64,000 bases of DNA from Escherichia phage vB_EcoM_G2248. Every line of letters starts with the position of its first letter. The first letter of the stretch is position 1. Position numbers and translations under genes: made by a program. The notes below the pieces were generated by a model. That model made no database searches and was not told the DNA's origin. It saw only the letters and a list, made by a program, of their open reading frames with translations. Positions 36,965 through 44,185 of this stretch are shown here, piece by piece. The stretch is from sequence record MK327932.1. The stretch is one strand, 5' to 3'.

Positions 36965-38206
36965 ATGACTCATATTTTTACTGAACTGTTGCGGGAATCT
37001 ACTTCCTCAGTAGCTAACCAGACAGCGCGACCGCAACTATTATCACTGACTCGCGCGGTAAACAACCTGATTTTCTCTGATCTGGTGGCAATCCAACCAA
37101 CCGATCAACCAGTATCTGCATTGTACGGCCTACGTTATCTTAATCATGATGGTCAGATGACGTTCCGGACCGCTGCAACCTATGGCGGTGCTGTTGGTGA
37201 TCGTTCTGATATTGAAGAATTTTCACAAGAAAAATCCTATGATGTAGGAGCAAAATTTAAATCAGGCGATGTTGTATACGAAGTTGTAACCGCTGGTACA
37301 GTAGGTGCAGATGCAGCCACGCCCGAAGCCGCAATTTTTAAAGGTGTGATGACAAATCAGATTCGCTTCTATAGCGACTGTGCACCTGTAGAATACTTTG
37401 AAGATAAAAACACAGAGATCTCATCAACGTCAATGCAGTTTGATAAGTGGCAGGTTAATGTAGGTTCTCGTAAATTGAAAACCTCGTTCACCACTGAATT
37501 AATGCAGGATCTTGAAGCAAGCCAAATCAACTCTGAAAACTCTGTAATTGATCTTCTGGCTACTGTCGCTTCCGAAGAGATCAACAAAGATATTATACAG
37601 AAGTTGATCACTGTATCAACTCGCTATAAAATTAAAGGGATCACCCCTGATGGCGTACTTTCTCTAGTTAGCGTTCAGGACGCACCAAAACAAGCTCGCG
37701 AACTTTACCGCTATGCTTGCGAAATGAGCAATCAAATGTTGCGTACTTCCTCCTTTGCTGGCACATACGTTTTGGCGTCTTCTCGCGTGGTTGGTCTCCT
37801 GCAATCTACCGGATGGATGGAAGAAACCGACAATGCTCTAAGCGAAGGCCGTCTACGCTGTGGTCTGGAAGTGTACGCAGATACGGTAACTCCGTTTGAT
37901 TATATGGTCGTTGGCTGTAAACACATGATCGGTGATATGGAGAGTGTAGGTTCTCTTTTCTACTCCCCATACACAGAAGCCGATGGCGCTGGCGCATATA
38001 AGAGCGTAATCGATCCTAACAGCTTCCAACACCATGTAGCTATTATGAATCGTTATTCACTCTCTGTCAACCCATACACAGCAAAAGTTGACCAAGAAGA
38101 ACACCAGGTCATCAAGGGTGACGAGTGGGCTAAACTTGCTGGACGTTCAGAAATGTCCTACATTTTAGGTATCGAACTGCCACCGCTTGAGATTGACAAC
38201 TCTTAA
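36965..38206 (+). CDS. 24: gp24 capsid vertex protein
   Basis: start at internal ATG 36965; N-terminus MTHIFTELLRESTSSVANQTARPQLLSLTRA resembles T4 gp24 and is gp23-paralogous. Confidence 0.85.
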   Translation: MTHIFTELLRESTSSVANQTARPQLLSLTRAVNNLIFSDLVAIQPTDQPVSALYGLRYLNHDGQMTFRTAATYGGAVGDRSDIEEFSQEKSYDVGAKFKSGDVVYEVVTAGTVGADAATPEAAIFKGVMTNQIRFYSDCAPVEYFEDKNTEISSTSMQFDKWQVNVGSRKLKTSFTTELMQDLEASQINSENSVIDLLATVASEEINKDIIQKLITVSTRYKIKGITPDGVLSLVSVQDAPKQARELYRYACEMSNQMLRTSSFAGTYVLASSRVVGLLQSTGWMEETDNALSEGRLRCGLEVYADTVTPFDYMVVGCKHMIGDMESVGSLFYSPYTEADGAGAYKSVIDPNSFQHHVAIMNRYSLSVNPYTAKVDQEEHQVIKGDEWAKLAGRSEMSYILGIELPPLEIDNS

Positions 38207-38794
38207 CTAAATATCTAACCAAGACAAGTCAGATCCGCCCAAGATTTTTTCGACGGCGGATCTATTTTCTTGATGATATAAGTTAAAACATGGTATCCCA
38301 TGTCTACGGGCAACATAAACAGCAATTCGAGTTCCGCCCGAAACAATACCATTAACTTCTTTCGCCCAAAATAACACACAATCTACAGGATCATCAAGTG
38401 TCTCACCTAAGACTTGAGCAACATTTCTAGAAAACAGATTTTGCATGTATAGCGGTATAGAACGAGGATTATCATAAACGTGTTCTAATTCATCCATCGC
38501 CAGATTCTTTTGCTCTAGAGTCTGCCACGCAATCACATCACGACCATTATGCTTATGATCGTAAAACTTCCAATTTGGAATGAAAATTTTTCTATAATCT
38601 GGGTCGTAATACTTCATGAAAGCATTGTCCATACCGTAAGCCCCTCCAGAATGCGCTACAACGCGATTTTCTGACAATACCCTCCCAATGGCACTAGCCA
38701 TTATCAAAATGTCGTTAGGCGCTTTTCTAGAGCCTATAAGAGCACATCTACGAAGTGGTTTTACTCCAAATAGATCTTGTAACTGGTCAAACAT
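38207..38794 (-). CDS. DprA/Smf-like Rossmann-fold protein (SLOG superfamily)
   Basis: ALIGSRKAPNDILIMASAIGRVL..VVAHSGGAYGMDNAF and later EVNGIVSGGTRIAVYVARRHGIPCF match DprA core signatures; start at ATG 38792-38794 behind GGAGGAA RBS. Confidence 0.55.
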   Translation of the reverse strand: MFDQLQDLFGVKPLRRCALIGSRKAPNDILIMASAIGRVLSENRVVAHSGGAYGMDNAFMKYYDPDYRKIFIPNWKFYDHKHNGRDVIAWQTLEQKNLAMDELEHVYDNPRSIPLYMQNLFSRNVAQVLGETLDDPVDCVLFWAKEVNGIVSGGTRIAVYVARRHGIPCFNLYHQENRSAVEKILGGSDLSWLDI

Positions 38795-38915
38795 AATATT
38801 TTCCTCCATAGAAAGCAGTATCATATTACAAGTTAATAACAAATACAAGTATCCGCGTAGCGGAAGCGAGCACAGCGAGCATTAAAACACTTCCAGTAAC
38901 TGATTAATAAATGTT

Positions 38916-38958
38916 CGAAACAAATTTTTATTATTCTATAAGATAAGTCTTCGTTTTG
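38916..38958. repeat. ~44-bp imperfect palindromic intergenic element, copy B
   Basis: cgaaacaaatttttattattctataagataagtcttcgttttg; near-identical to copy A (519-562). Confidence 0.6.
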
Positions 38959-39074
38959 TTCATAATTTAATCATACATGTAAAAACTACACAAAAAGGAT
39001 ATCGCTTCGCGAACTCCTACGGAGTATAACATTTGTGTTACAATATGTAGTGATTAATAATTAACCAAAGATAC

Positions 39075-39109
39075 ATTTTCTATGTTCTAAAGATCTTTCT
39101 TCGTTTTGG
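39075..39109. repeat. palindromic element copy C (right half conserved: ttctaaagatctttcttcgttttgg)
   Basis: matches right arm plus ~20 nt of flanking sequence of copies A and B. Confidence 0.5.
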
Positions 39110-39175
39110 TCACAATTTAATCAAACAGTATTAATATTGTCCACATGTAAACTAAATCATGATGATTTGTGGATA

Positions 39176-39205
39176 CAAAAAAGCCGCCCCGAAGGACGGC
39201 TAATG
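39176..39205 (-). terminator. rho-independent terminator (minus strand) after the 145-aa gene
   Basis: reverse complement reads agccgtccttcggggcggc followed by TTTTTT. Confidence 0.65.
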
Positions 39206-39209
39206 TTAA

Positions 39210-39647
39210 TTATTTGTTGATAACGATCTGATTTCGGCGAATGGTAACATTGCTCTTAGAGATGATCAGATCATCCGGCACTACGTTCGTTTTGTATGGC
39301 TGGAAGCGAACAAGCATCTGATTGCGTTTAGAACCTTCCTTAATCTTGATTTCCATCTGGATATTGTTGCCTACGTGAGCAATAGCAATTTGACCTTTGT
39401 TCTCATAGACCCACTTGCTGGTAACGTCGCCAGCGAAAGCCTTAATAACTTGCAATGCTTCGTCGTATGCAGTAGAGCTATGAACGTTCAGAAGACCAGC
39501 CGTCGCCAGACGTGAGCAAGTGATCGCTGGAGATTGCCAAACATCAACATTGATTTGCTCAATCAGAGCAACACCGCCATGATCAACTGCTTTGAATGCT
39601 TCAAACATTGCTTTTTTCATTGCTACGTGGTTTTTACGGAATTTCAT
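39210..39647 (-). CDS. hypothetical 145-aa protein
   Basis: complete ORF with own terminator; no recognisable motif. Confidence 0.5.
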   Translation of the reverse strand: MKFRKNHVAMKKAMFEAFKAVDHGGVALIEQINVDVWQSPAITCSRLATAGLLNVHSSTAYDEALQVIKAFAGDVTSKWVYENKGQIAIAHVGNNIQMEIKIKEGSKRNQMLVRFQPYKTNVVPDDLIISKSNVTIRRNQIVINK

Positions 39648-39693
39648 AATTAGTCACCTCTATTGATTAGTTATTCAGAATATTAATTACAAA

Positions 39694-39972
39694 TCAGGAC
39701 ATTGCCCGTTTGAATGCGTCCATTATAACAGTGTTTTTCGGCTTGTCAACACGTTTTTGAACTTTATTTTTAATTTTTTTGTTGATGTGGTGTTTACGAT
39801 AAACAACCTTTTCACGGTTGGCGTAAGCCTCGCGTGCATCTTTCACCATCAACCATGCCTTAGCCGCATCTTGTCCGCTGATCCCGCCAATCTTCTTAGC
39901 AATATCAACAAAATTAAGACCGTGGTCTTCTCGTAGCATGTAAACCATTAACGCTGTTTTCCTGTCCATCAC
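39694..39972 (-). CDS. hypothetical 92-aa protein with possible helix-turn-helix
   Basis: segment LNFVDIAKKIGGISGQDAAKAW resembles an HTH; basic C-terminus. Confidence 0.4.
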   Translation of the reverse strand: MMDRKTALMVYMLREDHGLNFVDIAKKIGGISGQDAAKAWLMVKDAREAYANREKVVYRKHHINKKIKNKVQKRVDKPKNTVIMDAFKRAMS

Positions 39973-40166
39973 TTCGCCTCATTGACGATTAACAGGATAG
40001 TGATCAGTACCGGAAACTGGATCATGACAGTACCAAAAAACCGGATAAACGCATTTTCTGACTTCCACACATTACATGCTGCTAGCTGATAGCACAATGT
40101 TGCAACCAGAGCAAGAATATACACAGAAAGTGGTGTAACTTCGATCAGTCGGGAAATCTCATTCAT
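39969..40166 (-). CDS. small hydrophobic (membrane) protein, 65 aa
   Basis: two predicted hydrophobic helices; overlaps downstream gene by 4 nt. Confidence 0.4.
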   Translation of the reverse strand: MNEISRLIEVTPLSVYILALVATLCYQLAACNVWKSENAFIRFFGTVMIQFPVLITILLIVNEAK

Positions 40167-40332
40167 ACTTCACCTCATACATTCATAAACACAACAACGA
40201 ATAGAACAGTAACAGTTATTAAAGCCATTTTCAACCCCATATTCATAATATTTTCTTCGCCTCACTATGACAGTAGCATGTCGATGCGTGCCATTATAGG
40301 CATCTAAATCGCTCTGTCAAGCGCAAAAAAAC

Positions 40333-40360
40333 AAAAAAGCCACCCCGAAGGATGGCTTAA
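40333..40360 (-). terminator. rho-independent terminator (minus strand) after hoc-like gene 1
   Basis: reverse complement: GC hairpin with ttcg loop followed by TTTTTTGTTTTTTT. Confidence 0.6.
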
Positions 40361-40363
40361 TGG

Positions 40364-41593
40364 TTAAAGTGGCGGAGCTTCGCGTATACGAAGAACTCTT
40401 TCTAGTGTCTCTCGATCTAAGTGATGGAATTTGCTTGCATTGTAGCTATAACCATTTCTGGATTCCATACAAATACAATCGCCGTATTTTTCCTCTGCTG
40501 CCGCGATCGTCTCCAGGTCTTTGGCATATCGACTACGGGAATATACTTCTCTGTGTCTCCATTCTAAGTTTAACTCATTGAATTTAACAATCTCGTCAAA
40601 TACCCACCAGCCAATATAGATAAACGACGTTCTACGCCACGGAAGCGGATGGACATAACGGAACATAGTATGAAGAGACTCGACTATGTTCATCTGGCAT
40701 TTGGTACTGATTACAAATCCTACCTCAACACGAGTTCCGTCAATGGTTTGAAAGAGTTTAGCTATACACCAGAAAGTAGCATGATCGTCCTGTGTCGCTC
40801 TTTCTTTGTATAGTGTGCCGTTAGGTAAAATTGAAAATCCCTCTGATATCTCTCCTATGGTGTTTCCTAATAATACCTTATCTTGTCCTTCTCGTTGTAG
40901 ATACCAGTTGTATTGGATGGATAGCGGTGGCATATCGCTATTATCGCCTACAATGTCCTCTGACACAAAATACTGCAATATGATTGGATAACCTATTGCT
41001 ACGGTGTTATCTGCGTTCACATCGCGATCTACGCTCATTTTAGCGAGCATTACCTTAGAAGATGTTTTGTCGATTGAGTTTTCCGATTCACCCCAGACCG
41101 AGACAGTATACACCCCGTTATCGTCATCGCTAAATTCGTGTATTGTTAATGTGTCGCTTGTGTTGTCTAATACTCGACCGTCTTTCTCCCAGCGATAATG
41201 GAGAGTATATGTGTCTGACGGTGATTTTCCTGTGGAGTAACTAACCGTTGTTCGTAGGTCAACATCGGTTTTTGTCTGTACATAGAAATGAGTAGGTTCT
41301 GTTATTTTTACAACTAGTTCGGCCTCATCCATCCGCACCGCGTTACTGGTTGCTTCGTCTCCTGTGTCGGTATCGCGCACGGTTACTTTGTAAGACCCTG
41401 CATTTTCACTTGTTGCGTCAGAAATAGTTAACGTGTTAGTGTCGCCTTCTTGCGATTTATCGTCTTTTGTCCATGTATATGTTAGATTGCTTGGTGCAGG
41501 GTCATCCCCAGAATCCAAAGTCACCGTTAATGTGAACGTGTCACCAGCGAGAAAACATCTTTTATCCGATTTTAATTTAACGGTAAATGCCAT
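40364..41593 (-). CDS. hoc: Hoc-like capsid decoration protein, ~3 Ig-like domains
   Basis: Ig-type periodicity (YxWxKDG.., GxYxCxV); C-terminal YVHPLPWRRTSFIYIGWWVFDEI segment shared with neighbouring paralog. Confidence 0.7.
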   Translation of the reverse strand: MAFTVKLKSDKRCFLAGDTFTLTVTLDSGDDPAPSNLTYTWTKDDKSQEGDTNTLTISDATSENAGSYKVTVRDTDTGDEATSNAVRMDEAELVVKITEPTHFYVQTKTDVDLRTTVSYSTGKSPSDTYTLHYRWEKDGRVLDNTSDTLTIHEFSDDDNGVYTVSVWGESENSIDKTSSKVMLAKMSVDRDVNADNTVAIGYPIILQYFVSEDIVGDNSDMPPLSIQYNWYLQREGQDKVLLGNTIGEISEGFSILPNGTLYKERATQDDHATFWCIAKLFQTIDGTRVEVGFVISTKCQMNIVESLHTMFRYVHPLPWRRTSFIYIGWWVFDEIVKFNELNLEWRHREVYSRSRYAKDLETIAAAEEKYGDCICMESRNGYSYNASKFHHLDRETLERVLRIREAPPL

Positions 41594-41611
41594 ATAATAC
41601 TACTCCATATA

Positions 41612-41642
41612 ACAAAGACCGACCCGAAGGCCGGTCTAACTA
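41612..41642 (-). terminator. rho-independent terminator (minus strand) after large hoc-like gene
   Basis: reverse complement: AGACCG-gccttcgggt-CGGTCT then TTGTT. Confidence 0.5.
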
Positions 41643-41644
41643 TT

Positions 41645-44185
41645 TTAAAATAACTGTGTTCCGTCAACCAGATAACCGTTACGAGATTCAAGTACATGCG
41701 TATTGCTGTAATGATGCAGCGATGCCGCGATAGTCTCGATCTCATCTGGATATTTGGTATGCTCAAAATCTTCCAGCCAGTTTAATCCAGATTTAAGGCA
41801 TCGTTCGATCTCATCCATGACCCAATACCCTTGATATTGGAACGAGGTACGACGCCACGGGATGGGATGCACATAACGTTTAAGTGTCGCTTTAGTAAAC
41901 ACAATGCGAACTTTTTCTGTGTGTGCAACATGGCCTTCGTCGTCCTTGACGACCGCGTAATATGTTGCTTCATGGTTCTCTTTAGTCAACTCACCATGAG
42001 GGATAGTCAAAACTTTTTGAGTTGCCCCAGGAATTGTTTTGTCTATGCCTCCTTTGACTTTATGCCACTGCCAACTAACTACTTTATCATCATCGACGTG
42101 TTCAGCGTGCGCTTCCAGCTTAACGTCTTGCTCTTGACCTTCTTTTGCCACAACATCAACCGGATGTTTGATAATGTTGATGTTTTGATGTGGAGCCATA
42201 GTGATTTCTGCCGGATTAGTTTCTACAGTTGTTTCTGCGGCTGTAATAACGGCAGTATAACGACCTACGTCAGAAGGTTTAACATGCTCGATGATAAGAG
42301 TTTCCGAGTTTTCCCCTGGAATAATAACACCATCTTTTTTCCACTGATAAGTTGGTTTTATGCCAATCGTATTAGTGGCTTGAGCGTGTAAAATAACTCT
42401 CTGGTTGAGGTTGACGTGAGCATCTTGCGGATGTATTGTAATTCGAGTATCGTTTTCAACAATCGACGGATCGTCGGTAATGATAACCCTTGCCGGATTG
42501 GTCATTTGCGATACACGATGTTCACCAAAACCCGCTGATACACGGCAGGTGTATACACCAGATGACGTTATCTGAGCGTGATCTTCACCATAAGAATTTC
42601 GTTGTTCGACACCAGCCGGGAAAAGATCTTTACCGTCTTTAAACCAGCGATAACGAACAGGTAGCGCATCATTCGAGGTTGCCTCAACTGAGATGGTCCA
42701 TACTCCACCAGAACGAACACTAATAGCGTGTGGCTGTTTAGTGATGTTCATAGTGGATTTGGTGGCGTCTACAGAAACCTGAACTTCATTGGAATCTTTA
42801 ACGATGCGATGATTCGAGATACCCATAGAAACCACGCATTTATAACGACCCTCGTCGGCTTTAGTGATAGCAGAAAAATGTAATGAATCCGAAGTTTTAT
42901 TTGGGATCAACTCATTATCCTTATACCACTGATAATCTAATTTGAAATGTTCATAATTAGACGTTGCTCGACAAGTAAGAGTTTGAGATGAACTCACACG
43001 AACGTTATTGATCGGCTGTGGTTGTTGGGTGATCGTGATCACCGGAGATGACCCGACCAGAAGTGTTGCTACCTCTGATTCGGTGATCTGATTATTTCCA
43101 TATGTAATTCGAGCTTTGAATTTAGCCTCATTAACATCATTGGTCGCCGGAATGATTTTTAACTCTTTTTCCGTTTCTCCAACGATAGGAGTAAATTCAC
43201 CTTCTTCTTTTTTCTGGCGTAGCCACTGTATTTTAACATTGGTGTAATTTGTTACATAATCAACACTTAGTACCGCTGGCGTTAATGCCGGAACATTAGT
43301 GTTTAATGGCTGTCGGGAAATTCGGAAATATGAACGTCCAGACACAACAACATTACAATCTTTAGAATAAACTACAGTACCCCCTTGACGAACTTCGAGA
43401 CGCCAGATCCCAGCATCGGCTTGTGTTACATACGGGATGATCATTGCTGTACCGTCTTGATCGATGATCTTTTTCCCGTTATGAATCCATGTGTACTCAA
43501 TATCACGAGTTGCATCATCGGACCTTACCGTAACTTCTAAATCCAAACGAGCATCTTCTAATACGGTGACAGTATCAGAATAATGTTCTTCGATGTGAAT
43601 TACTGGCGGTTTATCGTTTTCTTCCACAACAACCGGACTAATACGGTAATATGCTCGTGCGTCCTGGATAACAAATACTTTACAAGTATAATTGCCGAAG
43701 TCTTCACGAGATACCCTATCAACGTGTACGTTTTTAGCTTGTACTTTGTTGGGGTCAATCATAACATGATCTTTATACCAGATTGTATCAAATTGATAAC
43801 CGTCTTCGACAATCGGAGTGGCAAAAACATCAAGTGCTTCGCCAATTCGTTTGTAGATGTAAGTCGGAGATTGGTCTTGTGGTGCGATAAATGGAATACG
43901 CTCAACCAAAATCGGATCAATATCCACATAATCCAGTGGATTCTCTTTCAATTTGACACGCGCGGTATATGTGCCAAATTGTTCTTGAGTCAATTCGGCA
44001 ATGTACAGAGATTGGTCTGGTTCTGCAACTTGATCCGCTGGCACACTCTGACCGTTTAGCTTCCATTCTACGATATAGTCTTTAAAATCTGATGTACTTA
44101 CTACCAATTTAAGAACAAGTTCATGTCCCACTGATGCGTGGACAGGACCAGTAGTTTGATGTAAAATATTGATTTTATCAGACAT
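41645..44185 (-). CDS. giant Hoc-like protein with ~8 tandem Ig-like domains
   Basis: repeated YxW(F/K)KDG.. and G.YTC.V motifs across 846 aa; C-terminal YVHPIPWRRTSFQYQGYWVMDEI matches the paralog. Confidence 0.7.
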   Translation of the reverse strand: MSDKINILHQTTGPVHASVGHELVLKLVVSTSDFKDYIVEWKLNGQSVPADQVAEPDQSLYIAELTQEQFGTYTARVKLKENPLDYVDIDPILVERIPFIAPQDQSPTYIYKRIGEALDVFATPIVEDGYQFDTIWYKDHVMIDPNKVQAKNVHVDRVSREDFGNYTCKVFVIQDARAYYRISPVVVEENDKPPVIHIEEHYSDTVTVLEDARLDLEVTVRSDDATRDIEYTWIHNGKKIIDQDGTAMIIPYVTQADAGIWRLEVRQGGTVVYSKDCNVVVSGRSYFRISRQPLNTNVPALTPAVLSVDYVTNYTNVKIQWLRQKKEEGEFTPIVGETEKELKIIPATNDVNEAKFKARITYGNNQITESEVATLLVGSSPVITITQQPQPINNVRVSSSQTLTCRATSNYEHFKLDYQWYKDNELIPNKTSDSLHFSAITKADEGRYKCVVSMGISNHRIVKDSNEVQVSVDATKSTMNITKQPHAISVRSGGVWTISVEATSNDALPVRYRWFKDGKDLFPAGVEQRNSYGEDHAQITSSGVYTCRVSAGFGEHRVSQMTNPARVIITDDPSIVENDTRITIHPQDAHVNLNQRVILHAQATNTIGIKPTYQWKKDGVIIPGENSETLIIEHVKPSDVGRYTAVITAAETTVETNPAEITMAPHQNINIIKHPVDVVAKEGQEQDVKLEAHAEHVDDDKVVSWQWHKVKGGIDKTIPGATQKVLTIPHGELTKENHEATYYAVVKDDEGHVAHTEKVRIVFTKATLKRYVHPIPWRRTSFQYQGYWVMDEIERCLKSGLNWLEDFEHTKYPDEIETIAASLHHYSNTHVLESRNGYLVDGTQLF

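What the first reader, a model, noticed from the sequence alone, without database searches (positions are those of the whole stretch)
39210..40166. Three small genes between the DprA-like gene and hoc: unknown 145-aa protein, HTH-like 92-aa protein, 65-aa membrane protein
These minus-strand ORFs have their own terminator and sit next to the palindromic repeat copies. The 92-aa protein contains a helix-turn-helix-like segment and is a candidate binder of those palindromes; the 65-aa protein is predicted to span the membrane twice. None corresponds clearly to a T4 gene of known function.
Basis: inference. Interest (0 to 1): 0.4.

Follow-up and report, generated by a model that had tools for sequence, protein, structure and literature searches.

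The report
Early small-gene cassette beside phage hoc
These are real, conserved but already catalogued small early genes of an RB49/Phi1-type T4-like coliphage: two tiny membrane proteins, the T4 gp24.3 homologue (a helix-turn-helix-like protein) and its usual downstream partner protein, all of unknown function and ordinary for this kind of phage.

Summary
The three minus-strand ORFs exist as described and are under purifying selection. The window is a Krischvirus (RB49/Phi1-like). The ORFs are Phi1 ORF165 (145 aa), gp24.3 (91/92 aa, Pfam DUF2774) and ORF167 (65 aa), annotated as hypothetical in 58 phage genomes.

A consensus sigma-70 promoter just after the hoc terminator, and a near-identical terminator after the 145-aa gene, bound them as one early cassette.

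- **HTH idea, supported at fold level.** The AlphaFold model of gp24.3 is a three-helix HTH. Its best solved-structure matches are sigma region 4, DnaA domain IV and similar domains, though none is statistically significant. An invariant basic REKVVYRK motif follows the HTH.
- **65-aa protein.** It has two hydrophobic segments.
- **Palindrome-binding idea, no support.** The palindromes occur only at this one Krischvirus intergenic spot. DUF2774 is widespread in T4-like phages that lack them in this locus.

New here:
- The 145-aa protein is a remote member of a protein superfamily always encoded directly downstream of gp24.3, and fused to it in phage CC31.
- A second consensus promoter lies inside the 3' end of 24.3.
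- An unannotated 23-codon hydrophobic micro-ORF precedes the 65-aa gene.

Function remains untested. Interest is low to moderate.

The parts
40337..40358 (-). hoc terminator stem-loop. It is the stem-loop half of a PeSL-type element and one copy of a 27-nt direct repeat.
   Evidence: Terminator scan: 9-bp stem, TTCG loop, T-run. It is 93% identical to the 39175-39201 copy (D2).
40293..40320 (-). Early promoter P1: TTGACA, 16-nt spacer, TATAAT (12/12 matches). Inferred transcription start near 40286.
   Evidence: Identical hexamers in Phi1 and GEC-3S, and a 12/12 promoter at the same place in metagenomic relative L003.
40175..40246 (-). Unannotated 23-codon hydrophobic micro-ORF (MNMGLKMALITVTVLFVVVFMNV). 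Its stop codon lies inside the Shine-Dalgarno sequence of the next gene.
   Evidence: All 4 substitutions against Phi1 are synonymous in this frame, and non-synonymous in the frame GEC-3S annotates. L006 has an analogous 18-codon hydrophobic ORF at the same place. Mean hydropathy 1.89.
39969..40166 (-). 65-aa protein with two predicted transmembrane segments (Phi1 ORF167, phrog_16558).
   Evidence: dN/dS 0.26. It diverges faster than its neighbours (77-86% identity). It is absent from L003. L006 has a 61-aa two-hydrophobic-segment ORF at the same position that looks related by eye only.
39694..39969 (-). gp24.3 homologue, 91 aa from the ATG (92 aa from the GTG at 39972). Pfam DUF2774: a three-helix HTH-like domain (residues 4-51), the invariant basic motif REKVVYRK (residues 53-60), and a clade-specific C-terminal tail.
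39722..39749 (-). Intragenic promoter P2 inside the 3' end of 24.3: TTGACA, 16-nt spacer, TATAAT (12/12), preceded by TG (extended -10). It sits upstream of the 145-aa gene. Inferred transcription start near 39715.
   Evidence: Conserved in Phi1, GEC-3S, L003 and L006. In L006 the TTGACA sits in a different codon phase, so the DNA motif is conserved rather than the amino acids.
39210..39647 (-). 145-aa alpha+beta protein (Phi1 ORF165, phrog_15652). It is a remote member of the superfamily of proteins encoded directly downstream of DUF2774.
39182..39201 (-). Intrinsic terminator that closes the cassette.
   Evidence: D2.
38895..39130 (-). Two neighbouring imperfect palindromic elements, 150 bp apart. 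Arms are TGATTAA..TGAMCAAA and its inverse. They lie outside the cassette, upstream of the DprA-like gene.

Best explanation
The region is a compact early transcription unit of a Krischvirus (RB49/Phi1-type T4-like coliphage), set between the late genes hoc and 24.

**Shown from the sequence.** A promoter/stem-loop (PeSL-type) element starts the unit: the hoc terminator followed by a perfect sigma-70 promoter, P1. The order is a 23-codon hydrophobic micro-ORF, then a 65-aa two-segment membrane protein, then gp24.3, then the 145-aa protein, then a terminator. The first three ORFs show overlap signatures typical of translational coupling: the micro-ORF stop lies inside the next Shine-Dalgarno sequence, and the 65-aa stop overlaps the 24.3 start as TGATG. 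A second perfect promoter, P2, embedded in the 3' end of 24.3 gives the 145-aa gene extra, independent transcription.

**Inferred.**
1. Host RNA polymerase transcribes the unit immediately after infection.
2. gp24.3 is a small, very basic protein with a sigma-region-4-like helix-turn-helix. It binds nucleic acid, or a nucleic-acid enzyme, through the HTH and its invariant REKVVYRK arm.
3. The 145-aa protein is its cognate partner and acts with it, because relatives of this protein always sit directly downstream of gp24.3 and are fused to it in phage CC31.
4. The two membrane ORFs are an optional accessory module, absent in one relative. They probably act on the host envelope, as other small early membrane proteins of T4-like phages do (host takeover or superinfection exclusion type).
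For: **Identity and synteny.** The region is 92-93% identical at nucleotide level to 58 Krischvirus genomes. Phi1 and GEC-3S annotations list the same genes.

**Transcription signals.** P1, P2 and both terminators are found by the scan, with 9 terminator-like sites against 2.9 expected. The stem-loops flanking the cassette are 93% identical. PeSLs are described as strong early promoters plus terminators, associated with hoc, in PMC2839356. P2 is conserved across relatives whose proteins are only 56-66% identical, and in L006 it sits in a different codon phase.

**Expression of the T4 homologue.** T4 gp24.3 is classed 'early RNA, middle protein' in the supplementary tables of the T4 omics paper PMC9697503.

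**gp24.3.**
- DUF2774, E 3e-29.
- 77 homologues, those with source names being from T4-like or jumbo phages, with V57 Y58 R59 K60 invariant and E54 and V56 nearly so.
- Three-helix model with pLDDT above 90 over residues 1-50.
- Structural neighbours are HTH domains.
- Sub-threshold HTH hits in Pfam and in the PDB profile search.
- pI 10.2.

**Partner link for the 145-aa protein.**
- Confident model, pLDDT 84.5 and pTM 0.74.
- It matches predicted structures (BFVD library of viral protein models) from Erwinia phage Cronus (E 1e-5, TM 0.71), CC31 '24.3' (193 aa), Morganella phage MP1 and Proteus phage phiP4-3.
- Proteins of the same organism and length as each of these matches are encoded directly after a DUF2774 gene, often with 1-4 nt overlap.
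- PHROG cross-hits from family members: P0017 to phrog_19888 (E 7e-5), P0020 to phrog_7636 (E 5.8e-4).
- BLASTP of P0017 against the phiP4-3 protein: 35% identity over 46 aa, pairwise E 3e-8.
- Profile-profile comparison (hhalign): E 0.0028.
- The CC31 ORF is DUF2774 plus this domain in one polypeptide.

**Membrane ORFs.** Hydropathy. L003 lacks them while keeping 24.3 and the 145-aa gene. Purifying selection acts on all the ORFs.
Against: - No experiment exists for any of these proteins. No paper in the searched library mentions DUF2774, and a search for gp24.3 literature found nothing relevant.
- Structural matches of the HTH domain are individually non-significant (all E > 0.5), and no HTH Pfam family is hit above threshold.
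- The partner relationship rests on fold prediction from an 11-sequence alignment plus weak sequence signals.
- The window protein's own best cross-family hit is only E 0.0023.
- The fusion is seen in one phage only, CC31 (2 records of it among 36), and could be a sequencing frameshift.
- T4 keeps gp24.3 without a detectable partner of this superfamily, so gp24.3 can act alone.
- In this window the pair is not translationally coupled: there is a 46-bp gap and a separate promoter.
- The role proposed for the membrane ORFs is by analogy only.
Confidence: 0.5

Rival explanations
1. gp24.3 is a sequence-specific repressor or activator that binds the two palindromic elements downstream of the cassette. 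Through them it controls the DprA-like gene or read-through from the cassette.
For: - gp24.3 has an HTH-like fold and is very basic.
- The palindromes are real, two-fold symmetric and overlap sigma-70-like -35/-10 hexamers, as operators often do.
- The palindromes and 24.3 co-occur in the window, Phi1, GEC-3S, L003 and L006.
Against: - DUF2774 genes in T4, CC31, VPA32, Cronus, phiP4-3 and MP1 have no comparable palindrome in the same locus. This does not exclude sites elsewhere in those genomes.
- The motif occurs nowhere else in the 64-kb window.
- The arms differ between L006 and the other relatives while hairpin potential is kept (z-scores down to -6.2). That fits a stem-loop/PeSL role at least as well as a protein operator.
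- Adjacency is the only link to gp24.3.
Confidence: 0.1
2. gp24.3 is a mimic of sigma-factor region 4 that acts on RNA polymerase rather than on a specific DNA site. It could bind the beta-flap, or a protein that binds sigma region 4. It would help redirect host transcription early in infection, with the 145-aa protein as cofactor.
For: - The closest low-rmsd structural matches include sigma region 4 domains: SigE (2h27) at 0.8-0.9 A over 46-48 residues, and SigD (3vep).
- Weak sequence hits to RpoE region 4 (E 0.0098) and to Sigma70_r4_2, GerE and Gp68-like RNA polymerase component families.
- One GenBank record labels the homologue 'putative sigma factor'.
- Early expression of the T4 homologue.
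Against: - All these similarities are below significance and are generic to three-helix HTH domains. Lrp, DeoR, DnaA and GcrA rank equally.
- No region 2 or 3 equivalents are present.
- No experimental link to RNA polymerase exists.
Confidence: 0.15
3. The pair gp24.3 plus the 145-aa protein is a regulator/effector pair of toxin-antitoxin-like architecture: a small HTH protein followed by a roughly 100-150-aa effector. It would be used as a counter-defence or host-shutoff device.
For: - A small HTH gene followed by a tightly coupled 94-117-aa gene with 1-4 nt overlaps in Karamvirus, Roskildevirus and Bragavirus.
- The effector fold has no neighbour among solved structures.
- In other genera the neighbourhood holds RNA ligase 2 and a DprA-like protein that weakly resembles the defence proteins PsyrA and ShosA.
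Against: - No similarity to any known toxin or antitoxin family in Pfam, NCBIfam or PADLOC.
- A fused version exists in CC31, which is unusual for an antagonistic pair.
- In this window the downstream gene has its own strong promoter, so it would be made in excess of the putative antitoxin.
Confidence: 0.1
4. The ORFs are dispensable ORFan passengers, moved around by recombination between PeSL elements, with no specific function in this phage.
For: - The cassette is flanked by 93% identical 27-nt stem-loop repeats, the substrate proposed for PeSL-mediated excision (PMC2839356).
- The membrane ORFs are absent from L003.
- The 145-aa family is very narrow: 2 clusters among 1.84 billion representative proteins.
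Against: - All the ORFs show purifying selection, dN/dS 0.0-0.26.
- The order 24.3 then partner is kept in relatives as low as 55-66% identity and across several genera.
- The T4 gp24.3 protein is detected during infection.
Confidence: 0.1

Closest known systems
T4 gp24.3 / Pfam DUF2774 / phrog_1566
   Same: - The 91/92-aa protein scores 101 bits against DUF2774 (cut-off 29.2).
- It shares the F..IA helix and the invariant EKVVYRK motif.
- It lies downstream of hoc on the same strand, as in T4, CC31 and VPA32.
   Different: - It is 35 residues longer than T4 gp24.3 (56 aa). The extra C-terminal tail is specific to the Krischvirus clade and encodes promoter P2.
- A 65-aa membrane gene and a micro-ORF lie between hoc and 24.3, which T4 lacks.
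Phi1 ORF165, gp24.3 and ORF167, and the RB49 and GEC-3S equivalents
   Same: Same three genes, order, strand, promoters and terminators. The 145-aa protein is 95-98% identical and the 65-aa protein 77-86% identical.
   Different: Upstream, this phage has two tandem Hoc-like genes (409 and 846 aa). Phi1 has hoc, ORF168.1 and inh there. That layout matches metagenomic relatives L003 and L006.
PeSL elements (promoter-early stem-loops) of RB49 and Phi1 (Arbiol et al. 2010, PMC2839356)
   Same: A stem-loop terminator followed by a T-rich tract and a consensus sigma-70 promoter, directly upstream of genes of unknown function. The paper states the association with hoc. The stem-loop copies flanking the cassette are similar to each other.
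   Different: - I could not confirm that the paper lists this particular element: searching it for ORF164, ORF165, ORF167 and 24.3 gave no occurrences.
- P2 lies inside a coding sequence and has no stem-loop of its own.
phrog_7636, phrog_19888 and phrog_18468: uncharacterised proteins downstream of gp24.3 in Karamvirus, Roskildevirus, Bragavirus and Gualtarvirus
   Same: Same position immediately after a DUF2774 gene. Similar predicted fold (Foldseek E 1e-5 to 5e-3). They share a C-terminal motif W..(E/S)N.G.I.V..(V/I)G...Q.E(V/I)K.
   Different: - The Krischvirus protein is longer (145 aa against 94-117 aa), with a long N-terminal helix and an extra low-confidence C-terminal beta segment.
- It belongs to a separate PHROG family, phrog_15652.
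- It is not translationally coupled to 24.3.
Three-helix HTH DNA-binding domains (sigma-70 region 4, DnaA domain IV, Lrp/AsnC N-terminal domain)
   Same: Predicted helix-turn-helix geometry that superposes at 0.8-1.1 A over 45-48 residues.
   Different: No significant sequence or profile match. The HTH is followed by an invariant basic extended segment. DNA binding is untested.

Membership tests
Pfam DUF2774 / T4 gp24.3 | Profile HMM score above Pfam's gathering threshold | tested here: met
   101.2 bits against a cut-off of 29.2, E 3.4e-29, residues 7-69. T4 gp24.3 itself scores 72.5 bits.
Pfam DUF2774 / T4 gp24.3 | Conserved core motif (F..IA helix and EKVVYRK) | tested here: met
   V57, Y58, R59 and K60 are invariant, and F21, I24, A25, E54 and V56 at least 90% conserved, in 58 sequences.
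Pfam DUF2774 / T4 gp24.3 | Position downstream of hoc on the same strand, in the gene 24-hoc interval | tested here: met
   Phi1, GEC-3S, T4, CC31, VPA32, L003 and L006.
Helix-turn-helix DNA-binding proteins | Three-helix bundle with HTH geometry | tested here: met
   AlphaFold model with helices 4-15, 21-28 and 33-51, pLDDT 91-97 over residues 1-50.
Helix-turn-helix DNA-binding proteins | Statistically significant structural or profile match to a characterised HTH family | tested here: inconclusive
   - Foldseek against the PDB: no hit with E <= 0.001. The top hits are HTH domains at rmsd 0.8-3 A.
- Pfam HTH families are hit only below threshold, best E 0.00038, in 2-8 of 58 members.
- PDB profile search: RpoE E 0.0098.
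Helix-turn-helix DNA-binding proteins | Binds DNA | not testable with these tools
   Needs a gel-shift assay or ChIP. Only pI 10.2 and 22 K+R residues out of 92 can be shown here.
PeSL (promoter-early stem-loop) cassette | Consensus sigma-70 promoter next to a stable stem-loop, in an intergenic region upstream of a gene of unknown function | tested here: met
   Stem-loop 40358-40337 and promoter 40320-40293 (12/12 matches). Definition taken from PMC2839356.
PeSL (promoter-early stem-loop) cassette | Repeated motif shared with other copies in the genome | tested here: met
   27-nt stem-loop repeat, 93% identical, at 39175-39201 and 40331-40357. A genome-wide census was not done.
PeSL (promoter-early stem-loop) cassette | Promoter and terminator activity in vivo | not testable with these tools
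   The paper tested other PeSLs (193/192, 206/205, 211/210), not this one.
Superfamily of partners encoded downstream of DUF2774 (phrog_7636, phrog_19888, phrog_18468) | Encoded immediately downstream of a DUF2774 gene | tested here: met
   46 bp downstream in the window. Same arrangement in L003, L006, VPA32, Cronus, phiP4-3 and MP1, and fused in CC31.
Superfamily of partners encoded downstream of DUF2774 (phrog_7636, phrog_19888, phrog_18468) | Shared fold | tested here: met
   Foldseek against BFVD: Cronus E 1.2e-5 (TM 0.71 on the target), CC31 1.6e-3, MP1 1.3e-3, phiP4-3 5.4e-3, all with probability 1.00. Both sides of each comparison are predicted models.
Superfamily of partners encoded downstream of DUF2774 (phrog_7636, phrog_19888, phrog_18468) | Significant sequence-profile match | tested here: inconclusive
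   - Window protein to phrog_19888: E 0.0023.
- Family members do better: P0017 7e-5, P0020 5.8e-4.
- hhalign E 0.0028 but probability only 11%.
- Pairwise BLASTP E 3e-8 over 46 aa.
T4 gp24.2 (phrog_2416) | Sequence similarity of the 145-aa protein to T4 gp24.2, the gene that follows 24.3 in T4 | tested here: not met
   hhalign E 0.47. gp24.2 falls in phrog_2416/3012, which in VPA32 and Cronus is a separate, third gene.
Small integral membrane proteins with two transmembrane helices | Two hydrophobic segments of about 20 residues separated by a short polar loop | tested here: met
   19-residue hydropathy windows of at least 1.6 at residues 4-33 and 39-65, maximum 2.39, with loop KSEN. No dedicated topology predictor was available.

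The most novel reading that the evidence does not exclude
gp24.3 (DUF2774) and the variable protein encoded directly after it form a two-protein early module found in several genera of T4-like phages (though T4 itself lacks the partner). One component is a sigma-region-4-like HTH with an invariant basic arm. The other has a fold with no counterpart among solved structures. Together they would act on host or phage transcription or DNA/RNA transactions, for example by re-targeting RNA polymerase. In Krischviruses the module has picked up its own internal promoter and two membrane micro-proteins.
Probability: 0.25. Interest if true: 0.55.

Novelty: already known. Interest (0 to 1): 0.25.

Why it matters
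As it stands, this is routine. The genes are catalogued hypothetical ORFs of a well-sequenced phage genus, and the flanking promoter/terminator architecture was described in 2010.

Three by-products have modest value:
- **Pairing.** Linking the Krischvirus 145-aa ORFan to the proteins that follow gp24.3 in other T4-like genera, fused to it in CC31, turns two 'hypothetical proteins' into one testable pair. It also gives T4 gene 24.3, unassigned for decades, a concrete hypothesis: an HTH protein that works with a partner.
- **Intragenic promoter.** It is a clear case of a regulatory signal constraining a protein's C-terminal tail.
- **Micro-ORF.** It corrects an annotation in GEC-3S and adds a candidate membrane micro-protein.

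Tried and rejected
- **Sequence search of solved structures** with the 92-aa and 145-aa proteins found only chance-level hits: BurrH repeats E 0.04 and mistletoe lectin E 0.7.
- **Foldseek of the 145-aa model against the PDB** found nothing above TM 0.3.
- **Rfam scan of 38000-41000** found only sub-threshold hits far below gathering scores, so there is no known RNA gene.
- **RNA folding of the window's palindromes** gave z-scores of only -0.33 and +1.09 for the first 121-nt frames tried. I therefore did not treat them as a structured RNA. Tighter frames and relatives fold better.
- **A wider search for more palindrome copies** in the window found none beyond the four half-sites.
- **NCBIfam and PADLOC scans** of the three proteins found nothing. 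The only hit was a chance-level one to ribosomal protein L19, E 0.01.
- **Literature.** No paper mentions DUF2774. A search on gp24.3 returned only irrelevant papers.
- **The idea that the 145-aa ORF equals T4 gp24.2** was rejected.
- **Direct hhalign of the 145-aa family against the full CC31 fusion protein** was not significant, E 0.47. The link holds only through structure, PHROG cross-hits and synteny.
- **An exhaustive HMM search** of 1.84 billion representative proteins with the 145-aa family found only 2 clusters, so no deeper alignment could be built.
Full report
**What the window is.** Megablast of 38200-41700 against phage genomes finds 58 records, all Krischvirus (RB49, Phi1, JSE, GEC-3S and others), at 92-93% identity over about 70% of the query. 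The match stops inside hoc. In Phi1 the corresponding interval is annotated as gp24, then on the other strand ORF164 (DprA-like), ORF165, gp24.3, ORF167 and hoc. GEC-3S adds annotated terminators after hoc and after the ORF165 equivalent.

**Checking the observation.** The three minus-strand ORFs are at the stated coordinates.
- The 145-aa ORF (39210-39647) is Phi1 ORF165 (phrog_15652, no Pfam family).
- The 92-aa ORF is Phi1 gp24.3 (Pfam DUF2774, E 3.4e-29).
- The 65-aa ORF is Phi1 ORF167 (phrog_16558).
- The 92-aa length counts from a GTG. The ATG one codon later (39969) overlaps the upstream stop as TGATG, has a GAGG 7 nt upstream, and is the start used in Phi1, so 91 aa is more likely.

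These are genuine genes. tblastn finds the 145-aa and 65-aa proteins in all 58 Krischvirus records, at 95-98% and 77-86% identity. Against Phi1, dN/dS is 0.06, 0.18 and 0.26. The terminator after the 145-aa gene is clear: 39201-39182, 8-bp stem, TTCG loop, T-run.

**Transcription architecture.** Two perfect sigma-70 promoters (TTGACA, 16-nt spacer, TATAAT) lie on the minus strand.
- P1 (40320-40293) follows the hoc terminator (40358-40337) by 16 nt.
- P2 (39749-39722) lies inside the 3' end of 24.3 and has an extended -10 TG.

The hoc terminator and the terminator that closes the cassette are a 27-nt direct repeat, 93% identical and 1156 bp apart.

This is the promoter-early stem-loop (PeSL) arrangement that Arbiol et al. 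described for RB49 and Phi1: strong early promoters next to terminator stem-loops, mostly upstream of ORFans, with hoc named among the few known genes associated with them (PMC2839356). I could not confirm that the paper lists this exact element.

P2 is conserved in Phi1, GEC-3S and two metagenomic relatives whose gp24.3 is only 56-66% identical. In L006 the TTGACA hexamer sits in another codon phase: TTG ACA encoding Leu-Thr, instead of GTT GAC A encoding Val-Asp. The spacer there is 17 nt rather than 16, which keeps the -10 hexamer in frame. The DNA signal is therefore conserved, not the peptide. The C-terminal tail specific to Krischvirus gp24.3 largely encodes this promoter.

The T4 homologue gp24.3 is listed as 'early RNA, middle protein' in the supplementary tables of a T4 transcriptome/proteome study (PMC9697503). 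That agrees with early expression.

**A fourth gene.** Between P1 and the 65-aa ORF lies a 23-codon ORF (40246-40175, MNMGLKMALITVTVLFVVVFMNV). Its stop codon lies inside the Shine-Dalgarno sequence of the next gene.
- All four nucleotide differences from Phi1 are synonymous in this frame. In the other frame, which GEC-3S annotates as a 44-aa protein, they change amino acids.
- L006 has an 18-codon hydrophobic ORF (MILLPIVVIFVVVLKTMR) at the same place, ahead of its 61-aa membrane ORF.
- L003 lacks both membrane ORFs, and there the PeSL promoter drives 24.3 directly.

The membrane pair is therefore an optional module. 24.3 plus the 145-aa gene is the conserved core.

**The 65-aa protein.** It has two hydrophobic stretches, about residues 11-31 and 40-62, separated by the loop KSEN. 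It evolves faster than its neighbours. There is no family beyond its own PHROG.

**The 92-aa protein.**
- A profile search finds 77 relatives. Those with source names are from T4-like or jumbo phages.
- Residues V57, Y58, R59 and K60 are invariant. F21, I24, A25, E54 and V56 are nearly so.
- The AlphaFold model (58-sequence alignment, mean pLDDT 83.6) has helices at 4-15, 21-28 and 33-51 with pLDDT 91-97. An extended basic segment follows, carrying the invariant motif, then a clade-specific C-terminal helix.
- Foldseek against the PDB gives no hit below E 0.5, as expected for a 50-residue domain.
- The list is nevertheless dominated by HTH DNA-binding domains: Lrp, DeoR, SigD and SigE region 4 (0.8 A over 46 residues), DnaA domain IV (1.1 A over 45), GcrA and CysB.
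- Scanning all 58 members against Pfam gives only sub-threshold hits. These are mostly HTH families: HTH_38, HTH_7, HTH_micro, AsnC-type, Sigma70_r4_2, GerE and Myb-like.
- A profile search of PDB sequences lists RpoE region 4 (E 0.0098) and the HTH domains of an IS21-type transposase, Myb, VirB and LrpA.
- The protein has pI 10.2.

'HTH-like' is therefore supported at fold level, though not by a significant profile match.

**The 145-aa protein.** The family is very narrow. The word-indexed search finds 11 proteins, and an exhaustive HMM search of 1.84 billion representative proteins finds two clusters. The model is confident (pLDDT 84.5, pTM 0.74): five helices followed by a small beta-sheet. 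It has no neighbour among solved structures.

Against predicted viral structures (BFVD) it matches uncharacterised proteins of other T4-like phages:

| Phage | Protein length | Foldseek E-value |
|---|---|---|
| Erwinia phage Cronus | 113 aa | 1.2e-5 (TM 0.71) |
| Citrobacter phage CF1 | 117 aa | 2.3e-4 |
| Morganella phage MP1 | 214 aa | 1.3e-3 |
| Enterobacter phage CC31 'protein 24.3' | 193 aa | 1.6e-3 |
| Proteus phage phiP4-3 | 94 aa | 5.4e-3 |

I then looked at those genomes. I matched the BFVD entries to genes by organism and protein length.
- In Cronus, the Karamvirus VPA32 and phiP4-3, the matching protein is encoded immediately after the DUF2774 gene, with 1-4 nt overlaps. In MP1 it follows after a 36-nt gap.
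- In CC31 the DUF2774 domain (residues 3-63) and this domain form one 193-aa ORF. The other Karamviruses keep two genes.
- Sequence evidence agrees but is weak:

| Comparison | Result |
|---|---|
| P0017 to phrog_19888 | E 7e-5 |
| P0020 to phrog_7636 | E 5.8e-4, near full length |
| P0020 to phrog_18468 | E 6.7e-4 |
| BLASTP, P0017 against the phiP4-3 protein | 35% identity over 46 aa, pairwise E 3e-8 |
| hhalign, A2 against A5 | E 0.0028, collinear |
| Multiple alignment | Shared motif around W..EN.G.I.VA.VG...Q.E.K |

I conclude that the 145-aa protein is a divergent member of a superfamily of 'gp24.3-downstream' proteins. T4 itself has gp24.2 at that position. gp24.2 belongs to a different family (phrog_2416/3012), which is present as a separate third gene in VPA32 and Cronus, and it shows no similarity to the 145-aa protein.

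The 415-bp gap between the cassette terminator and the DprA-like gene holds two related elements 150 bp apart. Each has arms TGATTAA..TGAMCAAA and its inverse around an AT-rich centre. The half-site occurs four times in the window, against 0.3 expected, and nowhere else.
- Relatives L003 and L006 have two elements at the same place. Their arms are longer and better paired, and partly different in sequence.
- Hairpin z-scores are -6.2 and -1.4 in L006, -3.7 and -2.6 in L003, and -2.2 and -0.5 in the window.
- By my reading of the sequences, each element contains a sigma-70-like -35 in the left arm and a -10 in the centre. Examples are TTGAAC, 17 nt, TATAAT in L006 and 9/12 matches in the window.

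They therefore look like PeSL-type promoter/stem-loop units in tandem ahead of the DprA-like gene. This is an inference.

Nothing ties them to gp24.3 except adjacency. The gp24.3 loci of T4, CC31, VPA32, Cronus, phiP4-3 and MP1 contain no such motif or comparable intergenic palindrome. The hypothesis is not refuted, because binding sites could lie elsewhere in those genomes. It has no positive support either.

**Most likely mechanism.**
- *Shown:* the genes, their conservation, the signals and the synteny.
- *Inferred:* host RNA polymerase transcribes the four genes from P1 right after infection, and transcribes the 145-aa gene additionally from P2.
- *Inferred:* gp24.3 binds nucleic acid, or a nucleic-acid enzyme, through its HTH and invariant basic arm. 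The 145-aa protein works with it.
- *Inferred:* the two membrane products act on the envelope.

The rivals are a palindrome-specific repressor, a sigma-region-4 mimic acting on RNA polymerase, a toxin-antitoxin-like pair, and functionless passengers. They are set out separately with their tests.

**Novelty and verdict.** The genes and the PeSL architecture are already in the databases and the literature, and their function is unknown there as here. The finding is ordinary for a T4-like phage.

The useful additions are the gp24.3-partner link with the CC31 fusion, the frame-independent conservation of the intragenic promoter, and the micro-ORF.

Interest is 0.25.

Noticed in passing
window 40175-40246 (-): An unannotated 23-codon hydrophobic micro-ORF lies between promoter P1 and the 65-aa gene. 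All 4 differences from Phi1 are synonymous in this frame, so the 44-aa ORF that GEC-3S annotates in another frame (BN201_0171) is probably wrong. L006 has an analogous 18-codon ORF.
   Followed up: yes
window 39722-39749 (-): A perfect sigma-70 promoter is embedded in the 3' coding end of 24.3. The TTGACA hexamer is conserved in a different codon phase in relative L006, so the promoter rather than the peptide is under selection. dS of 24.3 against Phi1 (0.08) is also lower than that of its neighbours (0.24-0.27).
   Followed up: yes
window 38895-38980 and 39045-39130: Two imperfect 75-85-nt palindromes lie 150 bp apart upstream of the DprA-like gene. They are kept at the same place, with better pairing, in metagenomic relatives (hairpin z-scores to -6.2). 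Each overlaps sigma-70-like hexamers. They are probably tandem PeSL-type promoter/stem-loop units. They are absent from other T4-like genera at this locus.
   Followed up: partly
window 38852-38864 (-) and about 30 nt downstream of it: A short GC-rich hairpin (TCCGCTACGCGGA) is followed by a moderate promoter-like sequence (TTGTAT, 17 nt, TATGAT), just ahead of the DprA-like gene. A similar CCGC..GCGG hairpin is present in L003 and L006.
   Followed up: no
window 40364-41593 (-) and 41645-44185 (-): Two tandem Hoc-like genes with Ig domains (409 aa and 846 aa) share a conserved C-terminal capsid-binding-like end. Phi1 and GEC-3S have a single hoc followed by ORF168.1 and inh. The double-hoc layout matches metagenomic relatives L003 and L006 (845/410 aa and 853/448 aa).
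   Followed up: partly
window 38207-38794 (-): The DprA-like protein (phrog_768) gives weak hits to the DprA-like domains of the defence-system proteins PsyrA (E 3.8e-5) and ShosA (E 2.3e-4) in PADLOC. It could be a decoy or counter-defence protein. In Karamvirus it follows RNA ligase 2 directly.
   Followed up: no
L008:8752-9333 (-) (Enterobacter phage CC31): The CC31 gene '24.3' is a 193-aa fusion of DUF2774 with the phrog_7636 partner domain. These are separate, overlapping genes in the other Karamvirus records. It is either a natural fusion or a frameshift error in the record.
   Followed up: partly
L012:2229-2873 (+) (Morganella phage MP1): The 214-aa protein downstream of DUF2774 is a tandem of two partner-type domains: phrog_19888-like, then phrog_18468. 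In phiP4-3 the same two domains are separate consecutive genes.
   Followed up: partly
window 39694-39969 (-), residues 16-44: A weak repeated resemblance (E 0.04) links the gp24.3 HTH segment (GLNFVDIAKKIGGISGQDAAKAWL) to the 33-residue DNA-binding repeats of the TALE-like protein BurrH. It is probably chance or compositional.
   Followed up: no
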